Positions 12,024 to 46,516 of a DNA stretch of 64,000 nucleotides are shown here, in pieces; the first letter of the stretch is position 1, and each line of letters starts with the position of its first letter. Under the pieces are notes generated by a model. That model saw nothing but the letters and a program-made list of their open reading frames with translations. It was not told the origin of the DNA and ran no database searches. Source of the stretch: Eledone cirrhosa (lineage: Eukaryota); the NCBI GenBank assembly GCA_964016885.1, contig CAXHJY010001261.1, forward strand, positions 24,988 to 88,987, given 5' to 3'. A program made the position numbers and the translations under genes.

Positions 12024-15000
12024 CATACATATATATATATGTACATATATATATATATATATACATATATATATGGAAATTCCTGAAAGCAAACCTGCTG
12101 ATGGCGGCAGACAAAGTCTGTGGCTGGAGCAGGCCTGTAGGCAGGAGGAGAGTAACATGGTGGTGGAACAGTAAAGTGGAGGGGTAAATTAAGGCCAAAA
12201 GCAGGCTTGGAAAGTATGGCGGGATGGGGGAAGTAGAGAACACTATCAAGTGGCCAGGAGGGAAGCTAGGAGACAAGTGTACTTCGCAAGAAGGGAAGCA
12301 GAGGAAAGAAAGTTCAAGCATGTTCTACAACGCGAGGACCAAAAACGTGAGGTGTTCAGGATTGCTAGGCAATGTGTCAAAGAAAACCGTGATATTGTCG
12401 GGGAGAAGTGTGTACTTAATGATGACGGCGTACTTGCCATCACCGACGCTGATAAGAAGGTAGCTTGGCAGTGTCACTACGAAAGGGTACTAAATGAGGA
12501 GAATAAATGGGAGAAAGACAGTCTCCCCCACATCGACCCAATAGAGGGACCAGCAGTGTTAGTCGAGGGTAGTATAATAAGTAAGGCAATCAAAGATATG
12601 AAGACAGGTAAGGTGGCTGGGCCTTCGGAAATAGTTGCTGAGATGCTGAAGGCATCTGGTACGGTGGGACACACCATGGTCACCCGGATAGTTAACCAAG
12701 TCGTACAGAATGGGGTTGTTCCGAAGGACTGGCGTAGCAGCATCATCGTTAACTGTTATAAGGGTAAAGGAGATGCCCTAGATAGGAGTAACTATAGAGG
12801 CATTAAATTAATCGACCAGGTCATGAAGGTCACGGAAAAAGTAATAGCGCAACTAATCAGAGAGAGAATTGATCTAGATGAAATGCAGTTCGGGTTTGTG
12901 TCAGGCAAAAGTACCACAGACGCTCTTTTCATTGTACGACAACTACAGGAGAAGTACCTAGCTAAAAGTAAACCCCTATACTTAGCCTTTGTCGACTTGG
13001 AGAAAGCCTTCGACAGAGTCCCCCGTTCCATTATCTGGTGGGCTCTTAGAAAACTAGGTGTTGACGAATGGCTTGTGAGAGCTATACAAGCCATGTATAA
13101 AGAAACAGTCAGCAAGGTTAGAATTAACAACGAATATAGTGAAGAGTTTAGCGTAAAAGTTGGCGTCCATCAGGGCTCTGTTCTCAGCCCACTACTATTT
13201 ATTATTGCCCTTCAGGCTATAACAGAGGAGTTCAAGACCGGCTGCCCATGGGAACTCCTATACGCAGATGATCTAACACTCATAGCTGAATCAATGGCCG
13301 AGCTAGAGAAGAAATTCCAAACATGGAAGCACAGCCTAGAATCAAAAGGCCTTAAAATTAACCTGGCTAAGACTAAAGTTCTAGTTTGTAAGAAAGAAAA
13401 TAAGGCGGCGGTCCCTTCCGGGAAGTGGCCCTGCTCAGTGTGTAGGAAAGGCGTAGGTAGAAACTCCATTTTGTGTCCCAAATGCAAAGTATGGGTGCAT
13501 AAAAGATGTAGTGGGATCACAGGTAAGCTAACTAAGAACATAGATTTTACATGTGGCCGGTGCTCTGGTGCAATAAGTAGCAGCAAGTGCCCACAAAATA
13601 GTAGCTCTTTCAACTGCGCAGAGGGTTCTATAGAAATAGTGGACAGCTTCCGTTACCTGGGTGACAAAATCAGCAGTGGGGGAGGGTGCTCTGAAAGTAC
13701 AGTAGCTAGAGTCAGAACTGGATACAAAAAGTTCAGAGAGCTTATACCACTATTAGCCGCTAAAGGGTTCTCCCTAAAAATGAAAGGCAGGCTGTATGAT
13801 GCCTGCATACGAACAGCAATGTTGCATGGCAGTGAGACCTGGGCATTGTGTGCAGAGGATATACGCAGACTAGAGAGGAACGAAGCTTGCATACTCCGTT
13901 GGATGTATAATAGTAATATACGTGAACGGCAAAGCATAAACAAACTAAGGAAAAAATTAGAAATAAGAGGGATCAGATGTTGTTTACTCGAGAGAAGGCT
14001 ACGTTGGTATGGACACGTGATGCGCATGAAAGACGATAGCTGTATAACAAAGTGCAGGGCAATAAAGATAGACGGTAGCCACGGAGTAGGCAGACCCAGA
14101 AGAACCTGGGACGAGCTGATAAATTCCGACCTCACACACTTACACCTCTCCAAGACAATGTCACTGGACCGAGACCTTTGGCGGTACTCAGTAATAGAGA
14201 AGACCCGCCTTACCTAAATACAAAGTAAAACCTACTACAGTCAGTAGGCATCTCTAACAAAATACACCCCCGTCCCACCACCCTCACCCCATCCACACCG
14301 CCCCTTTCAATGTAAAGTTATGTTGGTGCCACAAAATCCAGGCCGAAACAAATGAGATCATGTAGGTGTCACGACAAAAAACACACAGTCCACGCTGTAA
14401 AGTGGCTGTGTAGGCAACACGGTAAAAACCTCCCAGCCCCACACTGTAAATGTGGTTGGTGCTAGGAAGGGCATCCAGCTGTAGAAAACCCGCCAGACAG
14501 TCCTATGCGAGCAAGATAATCACTCTTGCCTCAAGTGGGAAAACCCCCGTCCAAACCCATGCAAGCGTGGAACACGGACGTTAAACGTTGATGATGATAC
14601 ATAGGAATGTAGTATGCATATATATACATACATACATATGTATGTATGCATATATATACATACATGTATGTCAGATCACCAGTTGGTGCTACTGGTAACA
14701 TGTATCCCAGTACAACCCGTCTCATGGTCGGGTCGTTGGCGACTAAACTGGCAACCCCACCAAGGTTTCTTGGTGAGGGGGGTGACTTTGGACATCCTGC
14801 AGGACTAAAAACAAAACCTGTCAAAGGGCAAAGGAGCTCTTAAGAGTCAATGGCCATCCAAAATCACCAGGAGAGATGACCCCTTAGCCTTTGTCAAGGC
14901 AGAATTCTAGGAGAAGGAAAACTCTGATATAACACCTGCAACCATGATGGTATCCAATGATGTTGACTTGTTCTTCTTTTTGGTAAATATCATCTTGGTT

Positions 15001-17705
15001 AAGAGAGTGGGACTGGCTTTGTGCAGTGCCTTTGCTCACTATAAAAGCTTCACGGCACAGGCATTGCTTTATATCTGGAGATCTCTCTGCACTTGTCATC
15101 ACATGGTACCATGCACCCAGCACTATGTGTCAATAATTGTCACAAGTGTAGTGTTTGTACCAAATTTTTCAAGTCGCTGTCTGGACTAAAAAGTCACTCG
15201 TTCAGCGCATCGGTAGGGGTTCTCCTACATGGATATAAAGTAGTGGCCGTACTCGAAAATGAGTTGGCAGCCACCATATACATACATATGTATGTATATA
15301 TACATATATATATCCTTACTCAGTAGGAGTAGATGAATGGCTTGTGAAAGCTGTACAAGCCATGTATAGGGGAGCAGTCAGCAAAGTTAGGATTAGCAAT
15401 GAGTATAGCGAGGAATTTAGTGTACAGGTTGGGGTCCACCGGGGCTCTGTTCTTAGCCCTCTCCTGTTCATCATAGTCCTGCAGGCAATTACGGAGGAGT
15501 TTAAGACCGGATGCCCATGGGAACTCCTGTATGCTGATGACCTCGCACTTATAGCTGAATCTATGGTAGAACTAGAGAAGAAATTCCAAACTTGGAAGTA
15601 GGGACTAGAAGGAAAGGGTCTCAAAGTCAACATGACAAAGACTAAGGTCCTTGTAAGTAGACGAGAAAACAGAACCCAGATCCCCTCAGGGAAATGGCCT
15701 TGCTCAGTATGTAGGAAAGGTGTAGGTAGGAACTCCATTCTCTGCGCCAAATGCAAACAATGGGTACACAAGAGATGTAGCGGGATCTCAGGAAGCTTAA
15801 TTAAGAATGTAGGCTTCACATGCAACAGCTGTACTGGGACAGCAAGCAGCAAACAGCCACAGGGAACAAGTACCACCATGGATATAAAGTAGTGGCCGTA
15901 CTCGAAAACGAGTTGGCAGCCACCATATATACATATATATGTATGTATGTATGTATGTGTGTATGTGTGTATGTATGTATGTATGTATGCATATATATAC
16001 ATATACATATATATATATGTATATATATACATGTATATATATACATAAATGAGAATAAATGGGAGAAAGACAGTCTCCCCCACATCGATCCAATAGAGGG
16101 ACCAGCAGTGCTAGTTGAAGGTAGTATAATAAGTAAGACAATCAAAGATATGAAGACGGGTAAGGCGGCTGGGCCTTCGGAAATAGTTGCTGAAATGCTG
16201 AAAGCATCTGGAACGGTGGGATGCACTATGGTCACCCGGATAGTAAACCAAGTCATACAGAATGGGGTCGTTCCGAAGGACTGGCGCATCATCATTAACT
16301 GCTACAAGGGTAAAGGAGATGCCCTAGATAGGGGTAACTATAGAGGCATTAAATTAATCGACCAGGTCATGAATATCACAGAAAAAGTTAATAACGCAAC
16401 TAATTAGAGAGCGAATTGATCTAGATGAAATGCAGTTCGGGTTTGTGTCAGGTAAAAGTACCACAGACGCTCTTTTCGTTGTACGACAACTACAGGAGAA
16501 GTACCTAGCTAAAAGTAAACCCCTATGCTTAGCTTTTGTTGACTTGGAGAAAGCCTTTGACAGAGTCCCCCGCTCTATTATCTGGTGGGCTCTTAGAAAA
16601 CTAGGCGTTGATGAATGGCTTGTGAGAGCTATACAAGCCATGTATAAAGAAACAGTCAGCAAAGTTAGAATTAACAACGAATATAGTGAAGAGTTTAGCG
16701 TAAAGGTTGGTGTTCATCAGGGCTCTGTCCTTAGCCCCCTCCTATTTATTATTGCCCTTGAGGCTATAACAGAGGAGTTCAAGACCAGCTGCCCATGGGA
16801 ACTCCTATACGCAAATGATCTAACGCTCATAGCTGAATCAATGGCCGAACTAGAGAAGAAATTCCAAATATGGAAGCATGGCCTAGAATCAAAAGGCCTT
16901 AAAATTAACCTGTCGAAGACTAAAGTTTTAGTTTGTAGGAAGGAAAATAGGGCACCAATCCCATCTGGGAAATGGCCATGCTCAGTGTGTAGGAAAGGAG
17001 TAGGCAGAAACTCCATTTTATGTCCCAAATGCAAAGTATGGGTGCATAAAAGATGTAGTGGGATCACAGGTAAGCTAACTAAGAATATAGATTTTATATG
17101 TGGCTGGTGCTCTGGTGCAATAAGTAGCAGCAAGTGCCCACAGAATACTAGCTCATTCCATTGCACAGATGGTTCTATAGAAAGAGTGGACACCTTCCGT
17201 TACCTGGGTGACAAAATCAGCAGTGGTGGAGGGTGCTCCGAAAGTACAGTAGCTACAGTCAGAACGGGATGGAAAAAGTTCAGAGAGCTTATACCACTAT
17301 TGGCCGCTAAAGGTTTCTCACTAAAAATGAAAGGTAGGCTGTATGATGCCTACATACGAACAGCAATGTTGCATGGCAGTGAGACCTGGGCATTGTGTGC
17401 AGAGGATATACGCAGACTGGAGAGGAACGAAGCTTGCATGCTCTGCTGGATGCGTAATAGTAATATACATGAACGGCAAAGCATAAACGAACTAAGCGAG
17501 AAATTAGGAATAAGAGGGATCAGATGCTGTTTACTCGAGAGAAGACTACGTTGGTACAGTCACGTGATGCACATGAAAGACGGCAGCTGTATAAAAAAGT
17601 GTATACATACATATATATGTATACATACATACATATATATGTATACATACATACACATCTATACATATGTATACATACATATATATGTATACATACATAT
17701 ATATG

Positions 17706-17764
<59 letters not shown>

Positions 17765-17801
17765 GTATACATACATATATATGTATACATACATATATAT
17801 G

Positions 17802-17832
<31 letters not shown>

Positions 17833-18421
17833 GTATACATACATATATATATATATGTATACATATATATATATATATGTATACATACATATATATATAT
17901 ATGTATACATACATATATATATATATGTATACATACATATATATATGTATACATACATATATATATATATATGTATGTATACATATATATATGTATACAT
18001 ACATATATATATATATATATATGTATGTATACATATATATGTATGTATACATATATATATATGTATCTATATATATATATGTATCTATATATATATATGT
18101 ATCTATACATATATATGTATGTATACATATGTATATGTATGTATACATATATATGTATGTATACATATATATGTATGTATACATATATATGTATGTATAC
18201 ATTTGTTGTTAATTGTATTACGGCTCTGTCCTCTGACATTGAGCTAACCATATACTGCCTATTTGATAAGTGGAGTGTTACACACTCCCAATTCTCTCCC
18301 TTATATATTATACATACATATATATATATATATGTATACATACATATATATATATGTATACATACATATATATATATGTATATTTACATATATATATGTA
18401 TATATACATATGTATATATAC

Positions 18422-31435: not shown

Positions 31436-32280
31436 CTACGGCTTACTAAATGTTTATTTATAAACATACCATATTTCTTTAGAAGTATGAAATTCCAATA
31501 CATATCTGTATAACAGCTATGCTCAAAGCTAAATTCTAATTCTATTCTATTATAAGTTAAGTCAACTTATACAGCTTCATATGCAAATGAGATTAATCGC
31601 CTCATTTACACAGACGAGAATACGCAAGAGTGGGAGGGATCGTCCTGATGAGAAGCAGTTCAGTTCGAAATGCATCGCCAATTGTCCCCCTTGCTTCTGT
31701 TGGACACCACCGGGTGGCGATAGCTGCTGGTGTTTTTGCATAGCTACGGCTTTCATTTTTCATTTTCATTTCATTTTACGTCCGCTTTTTCCCTGCTTGC
31801 AAGGGTGGGACGGGAACTGATTCTGGCTTGATTTCTACAGCTGGATGCCTTTCCTAACACCAACCTCATTTACAGTGAGTGCTGGGTGCTTTTTTGTCGT
31901 GGCACCTCCACGACCACTTTGCAGTGGAATGATAAGGATCCCAGTCCCTATCATCTCATTTCTACAGCTGAGTAAACTGGAGCAATGTGAAATAAAGTGT
32001 CTTGCTCAAGGAAACAACACATCACCCGGTCTGAGAATTGAACTCACAACCTTTCGATTGCAAGGCCAATGCTCTAACCACTAAACCATGTGCCTCCATA
32101 AATGTTTATTTCTAAATGTTTATTTATAAACATACATTGTTTCTTTAGAAATATGAAATTCCAATATATATATAGAAGGACTACCCTCTTCCTGCTATAT
32201 CAAGCGTTAACCTAATATATACCTTCCATATACTGTACCTATTGTGTTGTTATTTCTGTTTACCTTTTACACACACACAC

Positions 32281-40000: not shown

Positions 40001-40437
40001 ATCATCATCATTTTACGTCCGTTCTTCCACGCTAGCATGGGTTAGACGGGTTGTCCTGTGGTGGGCAGTGTGCAGTTGGCTGACGTTGTCTTGCTCATAC
40101 AGGAACTGATTCTGGCTTGATTTCTACAGCTGGAAGCCCTTCCTAACATCAACCTCATTTACAGTGAGTGCTGGGTGCTTTTTTTTTTTCGTGGTGCCTA
40201 CATGTCCACTTTACAGTGTGGGCTGGGTGCTTTTTTGCTGTGGCACTTCCACGACCACTTTGCAGTGGAATGTAGGGACCTTAGTCCTATCATCACATTT
40301 CTACAGCTGAGTAAACTGGAGCCTTGTGAAATAAAGTGTCTTGCTCAAAGAAACAACACATCACCCGGTCCGAGTATTGAACTCACAACCTTTCGATTGC
40401 AAGCCCAATGCTCTAACCATTAAGCCATGTGCCATCA
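40001..40437 (-). mobile_element. Full tRNA-derived SINE (family 2) whose 3' about 250 bp equals the RTE 3' UTR
   Basis: 40001-40260 is nearly identical to 40501-40752; head TGGCTTAATGG and GAGTTCAATAC. Confidence 0.9.
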
Positions 40438-40500
40438 CTATATATATATAGTCACTTATATATTATGAAATACTGTTGGCTTCACGCTCACAACAATTTC

Positions 40501-43500
40501 ATCATCACCGTTTTACGTCCGTTCTTCCACGCTAGCATGGGTTAGACGGGTTGTCCTGTTGTGGGCAGTGTCTGGTCGGCTGACCATGCCTTGCTCATAC
40601 AGGAACTGATCTGGCTTGATTTCTACAGCTGGATGCCCTTCCTAACACCAACCTCATTTACAGTGAGTGCTGGGTGCTTTTTCGTGGCGCCTACACGTCC
40701 ACTTTACAGTGTGGGCTGGGTGCTTTTTTGCCGTGGCACCTCCACGACCACCTTGCGGTGGGGGGGGGGGCATATTGTTTATATGCTTCAGCATGTACCC
40801 ATGGGAGGTCGGGTACCCTGTATTACTGCGTGACGCCAGAAGTCACGGTCGTGTGTCATTGACTTTGAGAGGTGTAGTTGGGTAAGGTCGGCTTTTATCA
40901 CCTCATCCCAAGTCATCTTGGGTCTCCCCACTCCGCGGTTTCCATCAACTTCTAGTGCTCTGCACCTTTTTATGCAGCTGTCATCCTTCATACGCATCAC
41001 ATGTCCATACCAGCGTAACCGCCTCTCCTGCACGCAGCATTTGATTCCTCTTATGCTCAGTCTCTCTCTCAATTCATTTATGCTTTGTCGTTCACGTATA
41101 TTACTGTTACACATCCATCGGAGCATGCAGGCTTCGTTTCTCTCTAATCTACGTAAGTCTTCCACCTTCAGCGCCCAGGTCTCACTACCATGCAACATCG
41201 CTGTTCGGATACACGCATCATACAGTCTGCCTTTCATTCTGAGGGAGAAGCCTTTTGCAGCTAGCAGTGGTAGTAGTTCCCTAAACTTCTTCCATCCCGT
41301 TCTTACCCTAGTTATTGTACTTTCTGAGCACCCACCTCCGTTGCTAATTCGGTCACCTAGGTAGCAGAAGCTGTCTACTGTTTCTACAGGGCCCTCCCAG
41401 AGATTGGTGGTACTTGTTTCCTGTGGCTGTTTGCTTGCTGTTTCAGCACAGCTGCTGCATGTGAATCCTACATTCTTAATTAAGCTTCCTGAGATCCCGC
41501 TACATCTCTTGTGTACCCATTGTTTGCATTTGGGGCAAAGAATGGAGTTCCTACCTACACCTTTCCTACATACTGAGCAAGGCCATTTCCCTGAGGGGAT
41601 CTGGGTTCTGTTTTCTCGTCTACTTATAAGGACCTTAGTCTTTGTCATGTTGACTTTGAGGCCCTTTCTCTCTAGTCCCTGCTTCCAGGTTTGGAATTTA
41701 TTCTCTAGTTCTACCATAGATTCAGCTATGAGTGCGAGGTCATCAGCATACAGGAGTTCCCATGGGCATCCGGTCTTAAACTCCTCCGTTATTGCCTGCA
41801 GGACTATGATGAACAGGAGAGGGCTAAGAACAGAGCCCTGGTGGACCCCAACCTGTACGCTAAATTCCTCGCTATACTCATTGCCAATCCTAACTTTGCT
41901 GACTGCTCCCCTATACATGGCTTGTACCGCTTTCACAAGCCATTCATCTACTCCTAGTTTTCTAAGAGCCCACCAGATTACTGCACGTGGAACTCTGTCA
42001 AAGGCTTTCTCAAGGTCGACAAATGCCAAGTAGAGTGGCTTACTTTTAGCTAGGTACTTTTCCTGTAATTGCCTCACAAGGAAGAGCGCATCAGTGGTGC
42101 CTTTCCCTGGAACAAACCCAAATTGCATCTCGTCTATATTCACCCGGTCCCTAATCAGCTGTGCTATAACTCTTTCTGTTACTTTCATGACCTGGTCCAT
42201 CAACTTTATACCTCTATAGTTTCCTCTATCTAGTGCATCGCCTTTACCTTTGTAGCAGTTGACAATGATGCTACTGCACCAATCTTTTGGTGTGGCCCCC
42301 TCTAGTATTACCTGGTTAACGATACGTGTGGTTATAGTGTGACCTACAGACCCAGATGCCTTCAGCATCTCGGCAGCTATACCCGATGGACCGGTTGCCT
42401 TCCCTATCTTCATATCTCTGATTGCCTTACTTACTACGCTGCCGCTGACTTGTACTGCTGGTCCCTCTATAGGGTCTACGTGGGGTAGGGTCTCTTCTTC
42501 CCATGCATTCTCCTCATTTAGTAATCTATCATAATGACTCTTCCATGCATCTTTCTTCTCAGCACTTGTGAGGGCAAGCTCACCTTTATCATTCCGGATA
42601 CACTTCTCTCCAATGACATCACAACTATCTCTGACACACTGCCTCGCAATCTTGAATACCTCCTGTTTCTGGTCCTCACGTTGTAAAACATGCTTGAATT
42701 TTCTATCCTCTGCTTCCCTCCTAGCTAAGTATACTTGTCGCCTAGCTTCCCTCTTGGTCTCTATGTAATGTACCCTGCTCCCCCCGTTCTTCCATTCTTT
42801 CCATGCCTGTCTCTTGGCCTTGACTGCTTCATCTACCTTATTGTTCCACCACCAAGTCACTCTCCTCCTGCTTGAGGTCTTACTCCAGCCACAAACCTCA
42901 TCCGTCGCCTCTAGTAAGTTATTTTTTAGGAACTCCCAGTTCTCTTCTACGTTAAATGTCTCTATCTGTTCTTCTTTACTGTCGTAGGCGTTGAGTAAAA
43001 TATCTTTAAATCTGTTACTGGTTGAGGGGACTTTCAGCTTCCAGATCTTTCTTCTCCAGGTTGGCCTCTGTTTCAGGGCTCGTCTAGTTCTGACCGTGAG
43101 GTCGCTGACAACTAAGCTATGTTGGGATGTACATTCCTCACTAGGGAAGGCTTTTGTGTTTACGACCGTCCATCTGTCACGTCCTCTGATGAGGATAAAA
43201 TCTAACTGACTAGAGTGCTCCCCTGATCTATAGGTGATCAGGTGGTTGTCGGGTTTTTTAAAGTTTGTGTTACATATCGACATGTCATTGGCGTCGCAGA
43301 ATTCTAGAAGTCTGAATCCTTCCTCATTCCTTGTGCCAACTCCATGGCCTCCATGTACTCTATTGAAGCCGTCGCAGTGTTTACCTACGTGTCCGTTAAA
43401 ATCTCCTGCAATGATTAGGAAGTCCTTGTCGTCTGTTAGAGCAGTAGTGTGTATTAGGGACTCGTAAAACCTATCCTTAAGTTCGTCTGGCAGCCCCGAT

Positions 43501-44085
43501 TGGGGTGCGTAAGCTGATATTATTGTGGTAATTGTCTTATTCAGGACTAGTCTGAGTTTAATGATTCTTGCATTTACCCTGTACACTGAGATTACTTTAT
43601 CTACCCACTTGTCAGCTAATAGTATACCTACACCACCCATCCCATCGTCATTTCCCACCCAGAAAAATTTGTAGCACTGGCTTTTTCCTACAAGGACTCT
43701 AGCAGACCCTCCTCTCCATCTAGTCTCTTGCACACAGCATACATCAACTTCCTTTCGCTCTAGCATTTCTACGATTTCTCCTGCTCTTCCTTTCATTGAG
43801 CCTACATTGATGGTACCAACTCGGAGTTTTGGGCATTTGTCGACACTCGTAGGGGAGGGTCTCTGGGTTGGCGCTTCACGTGGGTGCTTGGTAGCTCGCA
43901 GATTCATATTTCATCTATTGATTCAGAGTTGCTCGTGTATTCCCAGCTCATCCATCCCTAACGGTGGGAAAATTGAGGGCTAGAAGGACAGTGGTGGTGG
44001 GGTAATGGCAGGGTGTGTTGGGATGCGCCAGAGGAGGAGAGAGTTAGTTAGGCAGGTAGTAGCAGCAGCAGCAGTGGAAATGGCA
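40501..44085 (-). mobile_element. RTE-clade LINE (family B) with complete ORF
   Basis: Single long ORF, about 290-bp 3' UTR, (GAT)-type tail, short 5' UTR; 5' boundary approximate. Confidence 0.93.
40788..43907 (-). CDS. Intact RTE polyprotein, 1039 aa: APE + RT + embedded PHD-like finger
   Basis: GTINV, VQETRW, AYAPQ, GDFNGHVG, QLDF, SQH; RT LLYADD; no stops or frameshifts. Confidence 0.95.
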   Translation of the reverse strand: MNLRATKHPREAPTQRPSPTSVDKCPKLRVGTINVGSMKGRAGEIVEMLERKEVDVCCVQETRWRGGSARVLVGKSQCYKFFWVGNDDGMGGVGILLADKWVDKVISVYRVNARIIKLRLVLNKTITTIISAYAPQSGLPDELKDRFYESLIHTTALTDDKDFLIIAGDFNGHVGKHCDGFNRVHGGHGVGTRNEEGFRLLEFCDANDMSICNTNFKKPDNHLITYRSGEHSSQLDFILIRGRDRWTVVNTKAFPSEECTSQHSLVVSDLTVRTRRALKQRPTWRRKIWKLKVPSTSNRFKDILLNAYDSKEEQIETFNVEENWEFLKNNLLEATDEVCGWSKTSSRRRVTWWWNNKVDEAVKAKRQAWKEWKNGGSRVHYIETKREARRQVYLARREAEDRKFKHVLQREDQKQEVFKIARQCVRDSCDVIGEKCIRNDKGELALTSAEKKDAWKSHYDRLLNEENAWEEETLPHVDPIEGPAVQVSGSVVSKAIRDMKIGKATGPSGIAAEMLKASGSVGHTITTRIVNQVILEGATPKDWCSSIIVNCYKGKGDALDRGNYRGIKLMDQVMKVTERVIAQLIRDRVNIDEMQFGFVPGKGTTDALFLVRQLQEKYLAKSKPLYLAFVDLEKAFDRVPRAVIWWALRKLGVDEWLVKAVQAMYRGAVSKVRIGNEYSEEFSVQVGVHQGSVLSPLLFIIVLQAITEEFKTGCPWELLYADDLALIAESMVELENKFQTWKQGLERKGLKVNMTKTKVLISRRENRTQIPSGKWPCSVCRKGVGRNSILCPKCKQWVHKRCSGISGSLIKNVGFTCSSCAETASKQPQETSTTNLWEGPVETVDSFCYLGDRISNGGGCSESTITRVRTGWKKFRELLPLLAAKGFSLRMKGRLYDACIRTAMLHGSETWALKVEDLRRLERNEACMLRWMCNSNIRERQSINELRERLSIRGIKCCVQERRLRWYGHVMRMKDDSCIKRCRALEVDGNRGVGRPKMTWDEVIKADLTQLHLSKSMTHDRDFWRHAVIQGTRPPMGTC

Positions 44086-44409
44086 TTTATATACTTTAAT
44101 TTATATTTATACTTGGAATTCTCCTAGAGTGCTTAAAATTATTTGTGACTAATCCCGGTCTTTTTTTTTTTTTAAAACCGCGATAATATTGCTATTTTGC
44201 TGAACTCCTTACACTTGTAGAGTTTTTTTTTTTTCGGAATGTGTTTTGACTGTTGTTTCATGTAAACAGACATTCGTCCCATTCTGACATCACCAGCCAT
44301 GTCTCTCCATGTGCATTTATTTTTCATAATTACGTACGAGGTGAACTAGTCTGTCTTTAAATTACCTTTTTGGCATATTCTACAGTGGGTTTTGGGTTAT
44401 CGTGTTTGA

Positions 44410-44489
44410 GCTCTGCTGATGAACGACTCCAACCGTGGCCATCCCCACTGAAAGTTTCGCGAAATAGTCTTTTTAAGACTATACAGAGC
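44410..44489 (+). ncRNA. Complete type I hammerhead ribozyme
   Basis: GCTCTG-CTGATGA-[stem II]-GAA-ATAGTCTT-ttt-AAGACTAT-A^CAGAGC; 6-bp stem I, 8-bp stem III, AUA triplet, predicted cleavage after 44483. Confidence 0.85.
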
Positions 44490-44734
44490 ATTTGTAGATT
44501 TTCCAAATTGAAGGATGAGTATTTAAGCTTTATTTTATTCTGAGTTAAGGGTCTATTGATTTTTTCCCTGGAATTCACAAAATTCTATGGATTAATCTGT
44601 CGTGATTTTTTTTTTTAATCGAGTTTGAATTATTTTCCCACATCTTATGTTAACTCTTTTTCCATTTTGACGTTATAGTCACATATATTATGAAATACTG
44701 TTGGCTTCACGCTCACAACAATTTCTATACTTTA

Positions 44735-44772
<38 letters not shown>

Positions 44773-44780
<8 letters not shown>

Positions 44781-45098
44781 ATTAGAAATAGATTGACACA
44801 TATATATATAAAATAAACACATGAAACAATCTCAGGGAATAATTTGTAAAGTGTGTAAGCACACATAGCTAGGTAGGTAAATAATTAAAGTTTAACTAGA
44901 ACTTCAAATATAGGTACCTTTTTAAATGATTAGTCAGATTAATTGATTTTAAAAGGTACCTATATTTGAAGTTCTAGTTAAACTTTAATTAGTTACCTAC
45001 CTAGCTATGTGTGCTTACACACTTTACAAATTATTCCCTGAGATTGTTTCATGTGTTTATTTTATATATATATGTGTCAATCCATTTCTAGTTGATAT
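44773..45098. repeat. Imperfect fold-back palindrome, arms about 150 bp
   Basis: Arms are reverse complements with a few mismatches; about 20-bp spacer; starts at a (TA)n run. Confidence 0.9.
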
Positions 45099-45196
45099 AA
45101 AATGCTCGGAACTATTCATTGGAATCTTTGAGCTTATTCTGCAGTGAATATGGTGCATGTCTCTCAGACATGACAACTTTACCTTAATTTAATTTT

Positions 45197-45230
<34 letters not shown>

Positions 45231-45286
45231 AGTAAGGATATTTTCGAAACATCGAGTTGGTTTGAAATTATTAGAAATGTAAGCTA

Positions 45287-45603
45287 TCGCCGTATTTTAA
45301 CTAAAGAAATTAAAGAAATTATTTAGCCTGATAGTGGGGTTAAGAACCCTCGGAGAAATGGAAAAAGTTGAGTATTGACGTACATGGGAGTCGAACCCAC
45401 ATCTTTGGTTATCCGGACCACTGTGATACCATTTACACCAAGACATCACGGGTGATGTGTTGGTGTAAATGGTAGCACAGTGGTCCGGATAACCAAAGAT
45501 GTGGGTTCGACTCCCATGTACGTCAATACTCATCTTTTTCCATTTCTCTGAGGGTTCTTAACCCCACTATCAGGCTAAATAATTTCTTTAGTCAAAATAC
45601 GGC

Positions 45604-45605
<2 letters not shown>
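45287..45605. repeat. Palindrome made of two divergent tRNA-like Pol III units
   Basis: Centre near 45450; each arm has A box TGGTGTAAATGG, B box GGTTCGACTCC and a downstream TTTTT. Confidence 0.85.
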
Positions 45606-45664
<59 letters not shown>

Positions 45665-45776
45665 CAGTAGCACTAAGACAGCATTTTAGTATAATATGGG
45701 TATATTCACTGCCTATAAGCATACAGTATATGGTTTCATACACACCTCTATCATATATATATATCGATTAGGCAAG

Positions 45777-45890
45777 ACCCCGCTGATGAAGCCACATGCG
45801 CCGATTGTGCATTATTGCTTAATAAATGTAGACAATGGATGCTATACGCTCTCTTACTGCATTGAGTGTGGCAGAAACTTGAGTACAGGT
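45777..45890 (+). ncRNA. Minimal type I hammerhead, tandem copy 1
   Basis: CTGATGA-AGCCACA...TGTGGCA-GAAAC-TTGA-GTA^CAGGT. Confidence 0.7.
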
Positions 45891-46205
45891 ATAAATTTAT
45901 GGTACCCATTTACGTGTGTTGTATGTATCAAGGCAAATAACTGTGTCTACTCAGGGATTTATACATAACCATACCCATTGAGTACACCGAGATGGAACCG
46001 GTACTAGCTGGGAAAATGTATGCTAGTCCCGTTAACCTCTTATTTTTCTTCCAACTCGCAGATTCACAATCGGTTGGCAGTATTTTGATGACACACAAGG
46101 ATTCCAGTTACTACTATACTATTCTGTCGCCTGTCACATTTACTGCCAAAGCCAGCACAATCTGGAATCGAATCCTGTCGATCGATTGGTTATTGATTAG
46201 GCGAG

Positions 46206-46318
46206 ACCTGCTGATGAAGCCACATGCGCCGATTGTGCATTATTGCATAATAAATGCAGACAATGGATGCTATATGCTCTTTTACTACACTAAGTGTGGC
46301 AGAAACTCAAGTACAGGT
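46206..46318 (+). ncRNA. Minimal type I hammerhead, tandem copy 2
   Basis: ACCTG-CTGATGA-AGCCACA...TGTGGCA-GAAAC-TCAA-GTA^CAGGT; 5-bp stem I. Confidence 0.78.
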
Positions 46319-46482
46319 ATAAATTTATGGTACCCATTTATGCGTGTTGTATCGAGACACATAACTTTGTGTCAACTCTGGGATTTATACATAACCTTAC
46401 CTATTGAGTACATTGAGATGCAACCGGTACTAGCAGGGGAATCATATTCTAGTATCGCTAACCTCTTATTTTATATATATAT

Positions 46483-46516
<34 letters not shown>

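What the first reader, a model, noticed from the sequence alone, without database searches (positions are those of the whole stretch)
40444..44745. Complete monomeric hammerhead inside a terminally redundant unit of about 640 bp that was split by the intact RTE
Seen: TATAGTCAC...CACAACAATTTC at about 40447-40500 recurs at 44674-44725, and the sequence following the right copy (TATACTTTAATTTATAT) recurs at about 44090, just beyond the RTE 5' end. Removing the RTE gives repeat-unique-repeat, about 1.1 units, between (TA)n runs. The unique part holds a textbook hammerhead (44410-44489: stem I GCTCTG/CAGAGC, 8-bp stem III, AUA site). Inference: terminal redundancy with the ribozyme in mid-unit fits reverse transcription around a circular RNA. 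The 52-bp repeat is therefore probably not the RTE target-site duplication.
Basis: partly seen in the sequence, partly recalled or inferred. Interest (0 to 1): 0.75.

Follow-up and report, generated by a model that had tools for sequence, protein, structure and literature searches.

The report
Hammerhead retroelement split by another retrotransposon
A short non-coding repeat carrying a hammerhead ribozyme motif sits here as 1.1 head-to-tail units with a larger retrotransposon inserted in one end; it is likely a new member of the animal 'retrozyme' class, and copying from an RNA circle is plausible but untested.

Summary
The anatomy is real. A 636-bp non-coding unit with a type I hammerhead (44410-44489) lies between (TA)n runs as 1.11 units; a 3.6-kb RTE-like LINE on the opposite strand interrupts the left repeat, probably with a target duplication of about 5 bp. 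Public reads show a multi-copy family in which the 52-bp repeat is internal element sequence, so it is not the LINE's target-site duplication; relatives of the LINE were not seen to continue into the unit. Two corrections: the hammerhead is not textbook (this copy has an A-C mismatch at the base of helix II where 744 of 761 reads have A-U; no Rfam match), and a mid-unit ribozyme with redundant ends does not prove a circle, because Penelope-like elements make such ends from uncleaved tandem RNA in vitro. A circular template is my preferred reading (about 50%) and was already proposed in print for these elements. Expression, cleavage and the circle junction in other copies were not shown. Verdict: new member of a known kind (non-LTR retrozyme / non-autonomous Penelope derivative), with an unusually long helix III.

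The parts
40439..40450 (.). (TA)n run at the left end; its last 4 nt are shared with the start of the element
40447..40500 (+). Left terminal repeat, first part (54 bp; = 44674-44725 with a 2-nt insertion)
40496..40500 (+). Probable left copy of the LINE's short target duplication (4 of 5 match to 44085-44089); inferred
   Evidence: microhomology with the LINE at both junctions leaves the length uncertain (about 3-5 bp)
40501..44084 (-). RTE-like LINE: (CAT)n tail at 40501, single ORF 40788-43907 (1039 aa from Met) with endonuclease, RT and PHD domains; 5' boundary at 44084-44086
   Evidence: relatives match to 44086
44085..44089 (+). Probable right copy of the LINE's target duplication; inferred
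   Evidence: an X1 contig of the unit aligns from 44085 with 8 unaligned letters before it (record 2)
44090..44106 (+). Left terminal repeat, second part (17 bp; = 44726-44742), displaced by the LINE
44090..44725 (+). One full 636-bp period of the non-coding unit, about 32% G+C, multi-copy family
44410..44489 (+). Type I hammerhead: helix I 44410-15/44484-89, core 44416-22 and 44461-64, helix III 44464-71/44475-82, predicted cut 44483/44484; A-C mismatch at 44423/44460 in this copy
44394..44441 (+). Candidate pseudoknot (inferred): 44394-44397 with 44438-44441 in the helix II extension, complementary in the majority letters of relatives, weakened in this copy
   Evidence: 44394 G>T in 81 of 141 X6 reads, 44438 G>A in 541 of 546
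44674..44742 (+). Right terminal repeat (69 bp), inferred 3' end of the insertion, 259 nt downstream of the predicted cut
44738..44777 (.). (TA)n run at the right end; overlaps the last 5 nt of the repeat

Best explanation
This is one copy of a multi-copy, non-coding repeat that carries a type I hammerhead motif and lies in a (TA)n run as 1.11 head-to-tail units, with an RTE-like LINE inserted inside its left repeat; it was likely copied in by a Penelope-type reverse transcriptase-endonuclease acting in trans, most likely from a circular RNA. Shown: anatomy, family status, that the repeat is element sequence. Inferred steps: (1) multimeric + strand transcripts are cut at 44483/44484 by hammerheads that, with an 8-bp helix III, would work as monomers; (2) monomers are ligated to circles; (3) the borrowed enzyme nicks (TA)n DNA, starts internally about 259 nt downstream of the cut site, copies across the re-ligated site, once round and about 70 nt more; (4) later the LINE inserted 54 nt into the left repeat. 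My odds: history of the locus 0.9; retrozyme/Penelope-derivative class 0.8; circular template 0.5.
For: Anatomy. Family: 47-72 X1 contigs show single variants at 44438, 44460, 44498, 44648, 44656; overlapping X1 and X4 pieces tile 44085-44647 and an X5 contig carries on across 44674. The mismatch at 44423/44460 is an A-U pair in 744 of 761 X6 reads and 17,247 of 18,137 X1 depth, and X5 contigs of a second organism align over 44342-44428 and 44406-44515, so the fold is kept in the family. None of the 37 listed variant rows in the unit falls in the 42 nt of helix I, core and helix III (p about 0.08, weak; 193 rows not shown). Both ends of this copy share a minority letter (C at 40485 and 44710; T in 217 of 296 X6 reads) and differ by no substitution, as for one template read more than once. 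A linear monomer cut at 44483 could not give a copy with that site intact and more than one unit (logic from the anatomy). One X4 contig starts at about 44638 after a TA-rich flank, a different left end. (TA)n targets without clear duplications, partial tandems and tails are typical of Penelope-like elements (PMC8557442 passages). Invertebrate retrozymes with stable helix III cleave as monomers and accumulate as circles (PMC7229834; PMC7761336).
Against: No 44725-to-44090 joint among the 10 joints listed (the test was weak: 44726-44790 was masked and a restriction site lies at 44720-44723). 44090-44135 is the least covered part of the unit. One period folded as a circle is no more stable than shuffles (z -0.7; 11 of 40 as stable), whereas known retrozyme circles are called highly self-paired. 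This copy's hammerhead is not the predicted minimum fold in longer contexts. For a Penelope-like element in vitro, hammerhead cleavage is not needed and unprocessed RNA is the main template (PMC11167929). The two ends differ by a 2-nt indel whose states both occur in relatives (TT in 130 of 526 X6 reads), which would also fit two non-identical tandem units. 8 of 9 Xenopus dimers tested did not cleave (10.64898/2026.07.22.740005). No Penelope-type protein was identified in the 22 window frames scanned.
Confidence: 0.5

Rival explanations
1. Same element and same history, but the template was a linear, uncleaved tandem (read-through) transcript primed internally by a Penelope-type enzyme; the 70-bp redundancy is a 5'-truncated second unit, or the remainder of a longer array collapsed by recombination. 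No circle is needed.
For: Internal initiation downstream of the hammerhead on unprocessed RNA is shown in vitro (PMC11167929). The 2-nt indel between the two ends matches variation among relatives. The circle fold is unremarkable. A neighbouring unrelated hammerhead-like element is a 1.66-unit partial tandem with units only 86% alike.
Against: An 8-bp helix III should let the family's hammerhead cut as a monomer, which would deplete uncleaved multimers (inference). The two ends show no substitution in 69 nt and share a minority letter.
Confidence: 0.3
2. The unit is a one-off or rare internally deleted ('gutted') copy or pseudo-LTR piece of an autonomous Penelope-like element, not a self-propagating family.
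For: X1 depth is about four times higher downstream of the hammerhead than upstream, and falls at 44090-44135. Retrozymes are related to pseudo-LTRs in Xenopus. An earlier finding of this scan reached this reading for a similar element (lead only).
Against: Overlapping pieces from two samples tile 44085-44647 colinearly; the loose ends shown inside the unit in X1 look like diverged unit sequence (6 of 24 shown rows are X1; 368 not shown). No coding remnant in 6 of 6 frames (one sub-threshold hit, E 0.009, to a restriction enzyme family). The helix III is not the minimal metazoan pseudo-LTR type (PMC4209133).
Confidence: 0.13
3. 44086-44673 came in with the LINE (5' UTR or 5' transduction) and the 52-bp repeat is its target-site duplication.
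For: The repeat does bracket LINE plus unit exactly.
Against: The repeat is joined to 44673 in relatives of the unit, including a second organism; the 17 nt after the right repeat recur directly beyond the LINE's 5' end; LINE relatives differ at 44087; the hammerhead is on the strand opposite to the LINE.
Confidence: 0.04

Closest known systems
Metazoan non-LTR retrozymes (Cervera and de la Pena 2020, PMC7229834; Li et al. 2026 preprint 10.64898/2026.07.22.740005)
   Same: Non-coding unit, G+C under 50%, type I hammerhead, multi-copy, more-than-unit insertion; solo copies are described; 636 bp lies within the 51-972 bp range of the 2026 survey.
   Different: Only one hammerhead at this locus (not a dimer or array); longer than the 150-450 bp given for invertebrate repeats; helix III is 8 bp against the usual 1-2 bp; long irregular helix II; predicted circle not unusually self-paired; expression as circles not shown.
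Endonuclease-bearing Penelope-like elements and their pseudo-LTR hammerheads (PMC4209133, PMC11167929, PMC8557442)
   Same: Partial-tandem layout, both ends away from the hammerhead cut site, inferred 3' end downstream of the hammerhead, (TA)n target with no clear duplication.
   Different: No RT-GIY-YIG ORF or remnant; hammerhead is not the minimal, dimer-dependent type; 3' end is 259 nt from the cut site against about 85-92 nt in the anole element (my subtraction from its figures); sequence link to a pseudo-LTR not testable here.
Type I hammerheads with large helix III from fungal and protist Penelope-like elements and bacteria; pseudoknotted hammerheads (PMC4209133; PMC3088659)
   Same: Large helix III that allows monomer folding; no obvious canonical loop 1-loop 2 motif; a candidate helix I-helix II pseudoknot; AUA triplet as in the eggplant latent viroid (+) hammerhead (PMC1636495 abstract).
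   Different: Found in an animal-type repeat family; the pseudoknot is inferred from majority letters only; activity untested.

Membership tests
Type I hammerhead ribozyme | Core CUGANGA, GAAA and NUH in type I order | tested here: met
   44416-22, 44461-64, AUA 44481-83
Type I hammerhead ribozyme | Three helices around the core | tested here: met
   6, 3 and 8 bp; minimum fold of 44405-44495 (z -1.97), but not of longer contexts
Type I hammerhead ribozyme | Base pair 10.1-11.1 | tested here: not met
   A-C in this copy; A-U in 744 of 761 X6 reads, so met for the family majority
Type I hammerhead ribozyme | Tertiary contact between helices I and II | tested here: inconclusive
   4-nt complementarity in majority letters; no per-copy alignment for covariation
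Type I hammerhead ribozyme | Match to an Rfam hammerhead model | tested here: not met
   none at gathering score or at E<=10
Type I hammerhead ribozyme | Self-cleavage | not testable with these tools
   needs an in vitro assay
Non-LTR retrozyme | Non-coding, G+C below 50% | tested here: met
   32% G+C, longest open frame 75 aa; no Pfam family above cut-off in 6 of 6 frames
Non-LTR retrozyme | Multi-copy family | tested here: met
   dozens of contigs per variant site over the unit in X1; also X4, X6; distant relatives in X5
Non-LTR retrozyme | Tandem repeats with two or more hammerheads | tested here: inconclusive
   1.11 units and one hammerhead here; no junction joint listed, test weak; no genome held
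Non-LTR retrozyme | Stable, highly self-paired predicted circle | tested here: not met
   -116.0 kcal/mol against -112.4 +/- 5.0 in 40 shuffles; this copy only
Non-LTR retrozyme | Expressed as linear and circular monomer RNA | not testable with these tools
   no run on record as RNA was offered
Non-LTR retrozyme | No LTR, primer-binding site or polypurine tract | not tested
   not searched for explicitly
Autonomous Penelope-like element | ORF with RT and GIY-YIG endonuclease | tested here: not met
Autonomous Penelope-like element | Partial-tandem structure in a (TA)n target | tested here: met
Autonomous Penelope-like element | Minimal hammerhead with little or no helix III (metazoan type) | tested here: not met
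   helix III is 8 bp
Autonomous Penelope-like element | Sequence homology to a pseudo-LTR of a full-length element | not testable with these tools
   no genome or repeat library for this organism
5' ribozyme of a LINE | Ribozyme on the LINE's sense strand and shared by other copies | tested here: not met
   hammerhead on +, LINE on -; LINE relatives differ at 44087

The most novel reading that the evidence does not exclude
A high-copy animal family of about 636-nt circular RNAs with a monomer-active, long-helix-III, pseudoknot-stabilised hammerhead, whose genomic copies record both fates of the RNA: short copies that stop at the cut site (from linear monomers) and more-than-unit copies that run through it (from circles). 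That would be direct genomic evidence for rolling-circle reverse transcription of retrozymes, so far only a model.
Probability: 0.2. Interest if true: 0.65.

Novelty: new member of a known kind. Interest (0 to 1): 0.35.

Why it matters
Hammerhead-bearing non-autonomous repeats are known from many animals, so the kind is not new. The value is in testability: whether such elements are copied from circles is still a model in the papers read, and a family with a monomer-competent hammerhead and readable ends would let one count how copy ends fall relative to the cut site. The long helix III and candidate pseudoknot would be an unusual hammerhead variant for an animal repeat.

Tried and rejected
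No genome is held, so copies could not be collected. No second copy of the unit in the window. Rfam: no hammerhead match. Pattern scans: 0 in metagenome contigs, 0 in prokaryote genomes, 0 in viral contigs; a shorter pattern gave 2 metagenome loci, both chance 20-23-mers with no hammerhead core upstream, dropped. No RNA holder listed among 8 runs; 4 of these 8 were laid. The X6 molecule ends are not element ends: 6 of 6 listed 'end' rows coincide with AATT sites, and the 2413 starts at 44086 fit a CATG site in LINE relatives, so X6 depth says nothing on copy structure. Summed contig depth is no copy number; a thirty-fold dip at 44565-44599 shows how much alignment loss can do, so the four-fold X1 rise across the cut site (18,137 at 44460 to 71,936 at 44498) was not used as evidence; X4 shows at most a two-fold step there. 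Pfam on 22 of the window's 62 long frames found only LINE-type RT, endonuclease and PHD domains above cut-off, and nothing above cut-off in 12 frames of the two hammerhead units. The bacterial promoter scan is irrelevant and at chance level. No look-alike among earlier findings by sequence or place. The host group was not established; I searched 'octopus' and 'cephalopod' on a recalled resemblance of the repeat landscape: the listings (4, 3 and 3 papers) name no hammerhead family of such animals in titles or abstract starts. The supplement of PMC7229834 could not be read and may list related elements; preprint supplements are closed.
Full report
Observation. 40447-40500 equals 44674-44725 at 52 of 54 columns (one 2-nt indel, 43 nt exact), and the 17 nt that follow the right copy recur exactly at 44090-44106. 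The element therefore reads a-[LINE]-b-unique-a-b, with a period of 636 bp and 69-71 bp of redundancy, 1.11 units, between (TA)n runs that share 4-5 nt with each end. No other copy lies in the window. The interrupting element has one unbroken 1040-aa frame on the minus strand with endonuclease, RT and PHD domains; I call it RTE-like from recalled motifs, without a tree.

Hammerhead. 44410-44489 has the full type I core, helix I of 6 bp, helix III of 8 bp and an AUA triplet, with the cut predicted after 44483. Nothing as good arose in 60 of 60 simulated windows. It is not textbook: pair 10.1-11.1 is A-C, helix II is 3 bp with an irregular extension, Rfam has no match, and in 3 of 4 contexts tested the hammerhead fold is about 6 kcal/mol above the minimum. 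AUA occurs in nature and was the slowest of four triplets as purified RNA (PMC1636495, abstract).

Evidence from public reads. No genome is held. Eight runs were listed and four were laid on 43760-44790. The unit is a multi-copy family along its length: 47-72 X1 contigs show single variants at five sites, and overlapping X1 and X4 pieces tile 44085-44647 (22 of 1933 pieces are shown). At 44460 relatives have T in 744 of 761 X6 reads and 17,247 of 18,137 X1 depth, which makes 10.1-11.1 an A-U pair. A minority (153 of 514 X6 reads) has T at 44423, which I cannot place in the fold. Majority letters at 44394 (T, 81 of 141) and 44438 (A, 541 of 546) make 44394-97 complementary to 44438-41, a candidate pseudoknot of the kind reported for about 40% of hammerheads (PMC3088659, passages); this is inference. 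This copy departs from the majority at both places and may be impaired. Whether the runs are of the window's own species is not known, so these letters may be subfamily or species differences and not decay.

Is the 52-bp repeat the LINE's target duplication? No. It is joined to the unique part in relatives: depth is continuous across 44673/44674, and an X5 contig of a second organism runs from 44621 across that point. Relatives of the unit start to align at 44085 (X1 record 2, 8 unaligned letters before) or have a C before the b-like letters (X4 record 10), as the intact right junction does. Relatives of the LINE have G at 44087 where this copy has T, and X4 record 9 leaves the stretch after 44068 for 210 letters; the X6 reads stop at that restriction site, so they do not show what follows. 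None of the 22 listed pieces bridges the LINE and the unit. The hammerhead is antisense to the LINE. The likely target duplication is 40496-40500/44085-44089 (4 of 5 match), blurred by microhomology.

Mechanism. Both ends lie away from the cut site (259 nt downstream, 448 nt upstream) and the site is intact, so the template was not a cut linear monomer. Two templates remain. A circle is the published model for retrozymes, whose circles are shown in coral, mussel and axolotl (PMC7229834, parts 2-4 of 6; PMC7761336, passages), and was proposed for Penelope-like elements in 2014 (PMC4209133, parts 1-2 of 4). An uncleaved tandem transcript is what an anole Penelope-like enzyme uses in vitro, starting internally downstream of its hammerhead in AT-rich DNA (PMC11167929, parts 1-2 of 4). 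I lean to the circle because an 8-bp helix III should allow monomer cleavage and because the two ends show no substitution and share a minority letter at 40485/44710; if the copy's 2% or more divergence from the majority had accrued after insertion, about 3 substitutions would be expected (p 0.05 for none, 0.19 for at most one event). Against it: the 2-nt indel has both states among relatives, the predicted circle is no more stable than shuffles, and no joint from 44725 back to 44090 was listed, though masking and a restriction site weaken that test. One X4 contig begins near 44638 after a TA-rich flank, which shows a second left end but fits either template. The mobilising enzyme is inferred from the (TA)n target and partial-tandem layout (PMC8557442, passages); none was found in the 22 window frames scanned.

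Comparison and novelty. It works like, and probably is, a non-LTR retrozyme, which a 2026 preprint argues are non-autonomous Penelope derivatives with units of 51-972 bp and many solo copies (10.64898/2026.07.22.740005, parts 1-3 of 5). Membership is incomplete: arrays and circular RNA were not shown, and the self-pairing test failed for this copy. It is not an autonomous Penelope-like element (no ORF). An earlier finding of this scan read a similar element as a gutted Penelope copy; colinear tiling in relatives argues against a deletion private to this locus, but 44090-44135 is thinly covered, so I keep that rival at 0.13. What is unusual is the hammerhead's shape, closer to those described from fungal and protist elements than to metazoan ones. 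I found no report of this family in the searches made, but the host was not established and one supplement was unreadable.

Verdict. Observation confirmed, interpretation partly supported, new member of a known kind, interest 0.35.

Noticed in passing
window 45762-46472 (+): A second, unrelated hammerhead-like partial tandem between (TA)n runs: period 428 bp, 1.66 units, units 86% alike, two cores (45783, 46211), short helix III, helix II with an insert of about 70 nt and an extra A on both sides; predicted cuts after 45885 and 46313; helix I is broken in the first copy. No Pfam or Rfam match.
   Followed up: partly
window 44774-45099: Foldback with 154-nt arms, 97% complementary, 18 nt apart, directly after the right (TA)n run.
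   Followed up: no
window 45311-45590: Near-perfect palindrome of two head-to-head tRNA-like sequences (139-nt arms, 97%; ARAGORN calls both tRNA-Ser), probably a tRNA-derived SINE pair.
   Followed up: partly
window 44738-46513: At least five short elements in a row, each set off by (TA)n or (CA)n runs: a microsatellite hot spot of successive insertions.
   Followed up: no
window 40001-40268: A truncated 3' end of the same LINE family (91% alike), 500 bp upstream in the same orientation, also after a (TA)n run.
   Followed up: no
window 40286-40433: SINE-like repeat directly left of the element; 94% alike to 31947-32094, with three weaker copies.
   Followed up: no
window 40788-43910, 12193-14217, 16373-18247: Three related LINE frames all carry a PHD finger after the RT domain.
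   Followed up: no
window 44460-44498: X1 contig depth rises four-fold across the predicted cut site; copies that stop at the cut site or alignment loss, not resolved.
   Followed up: partly
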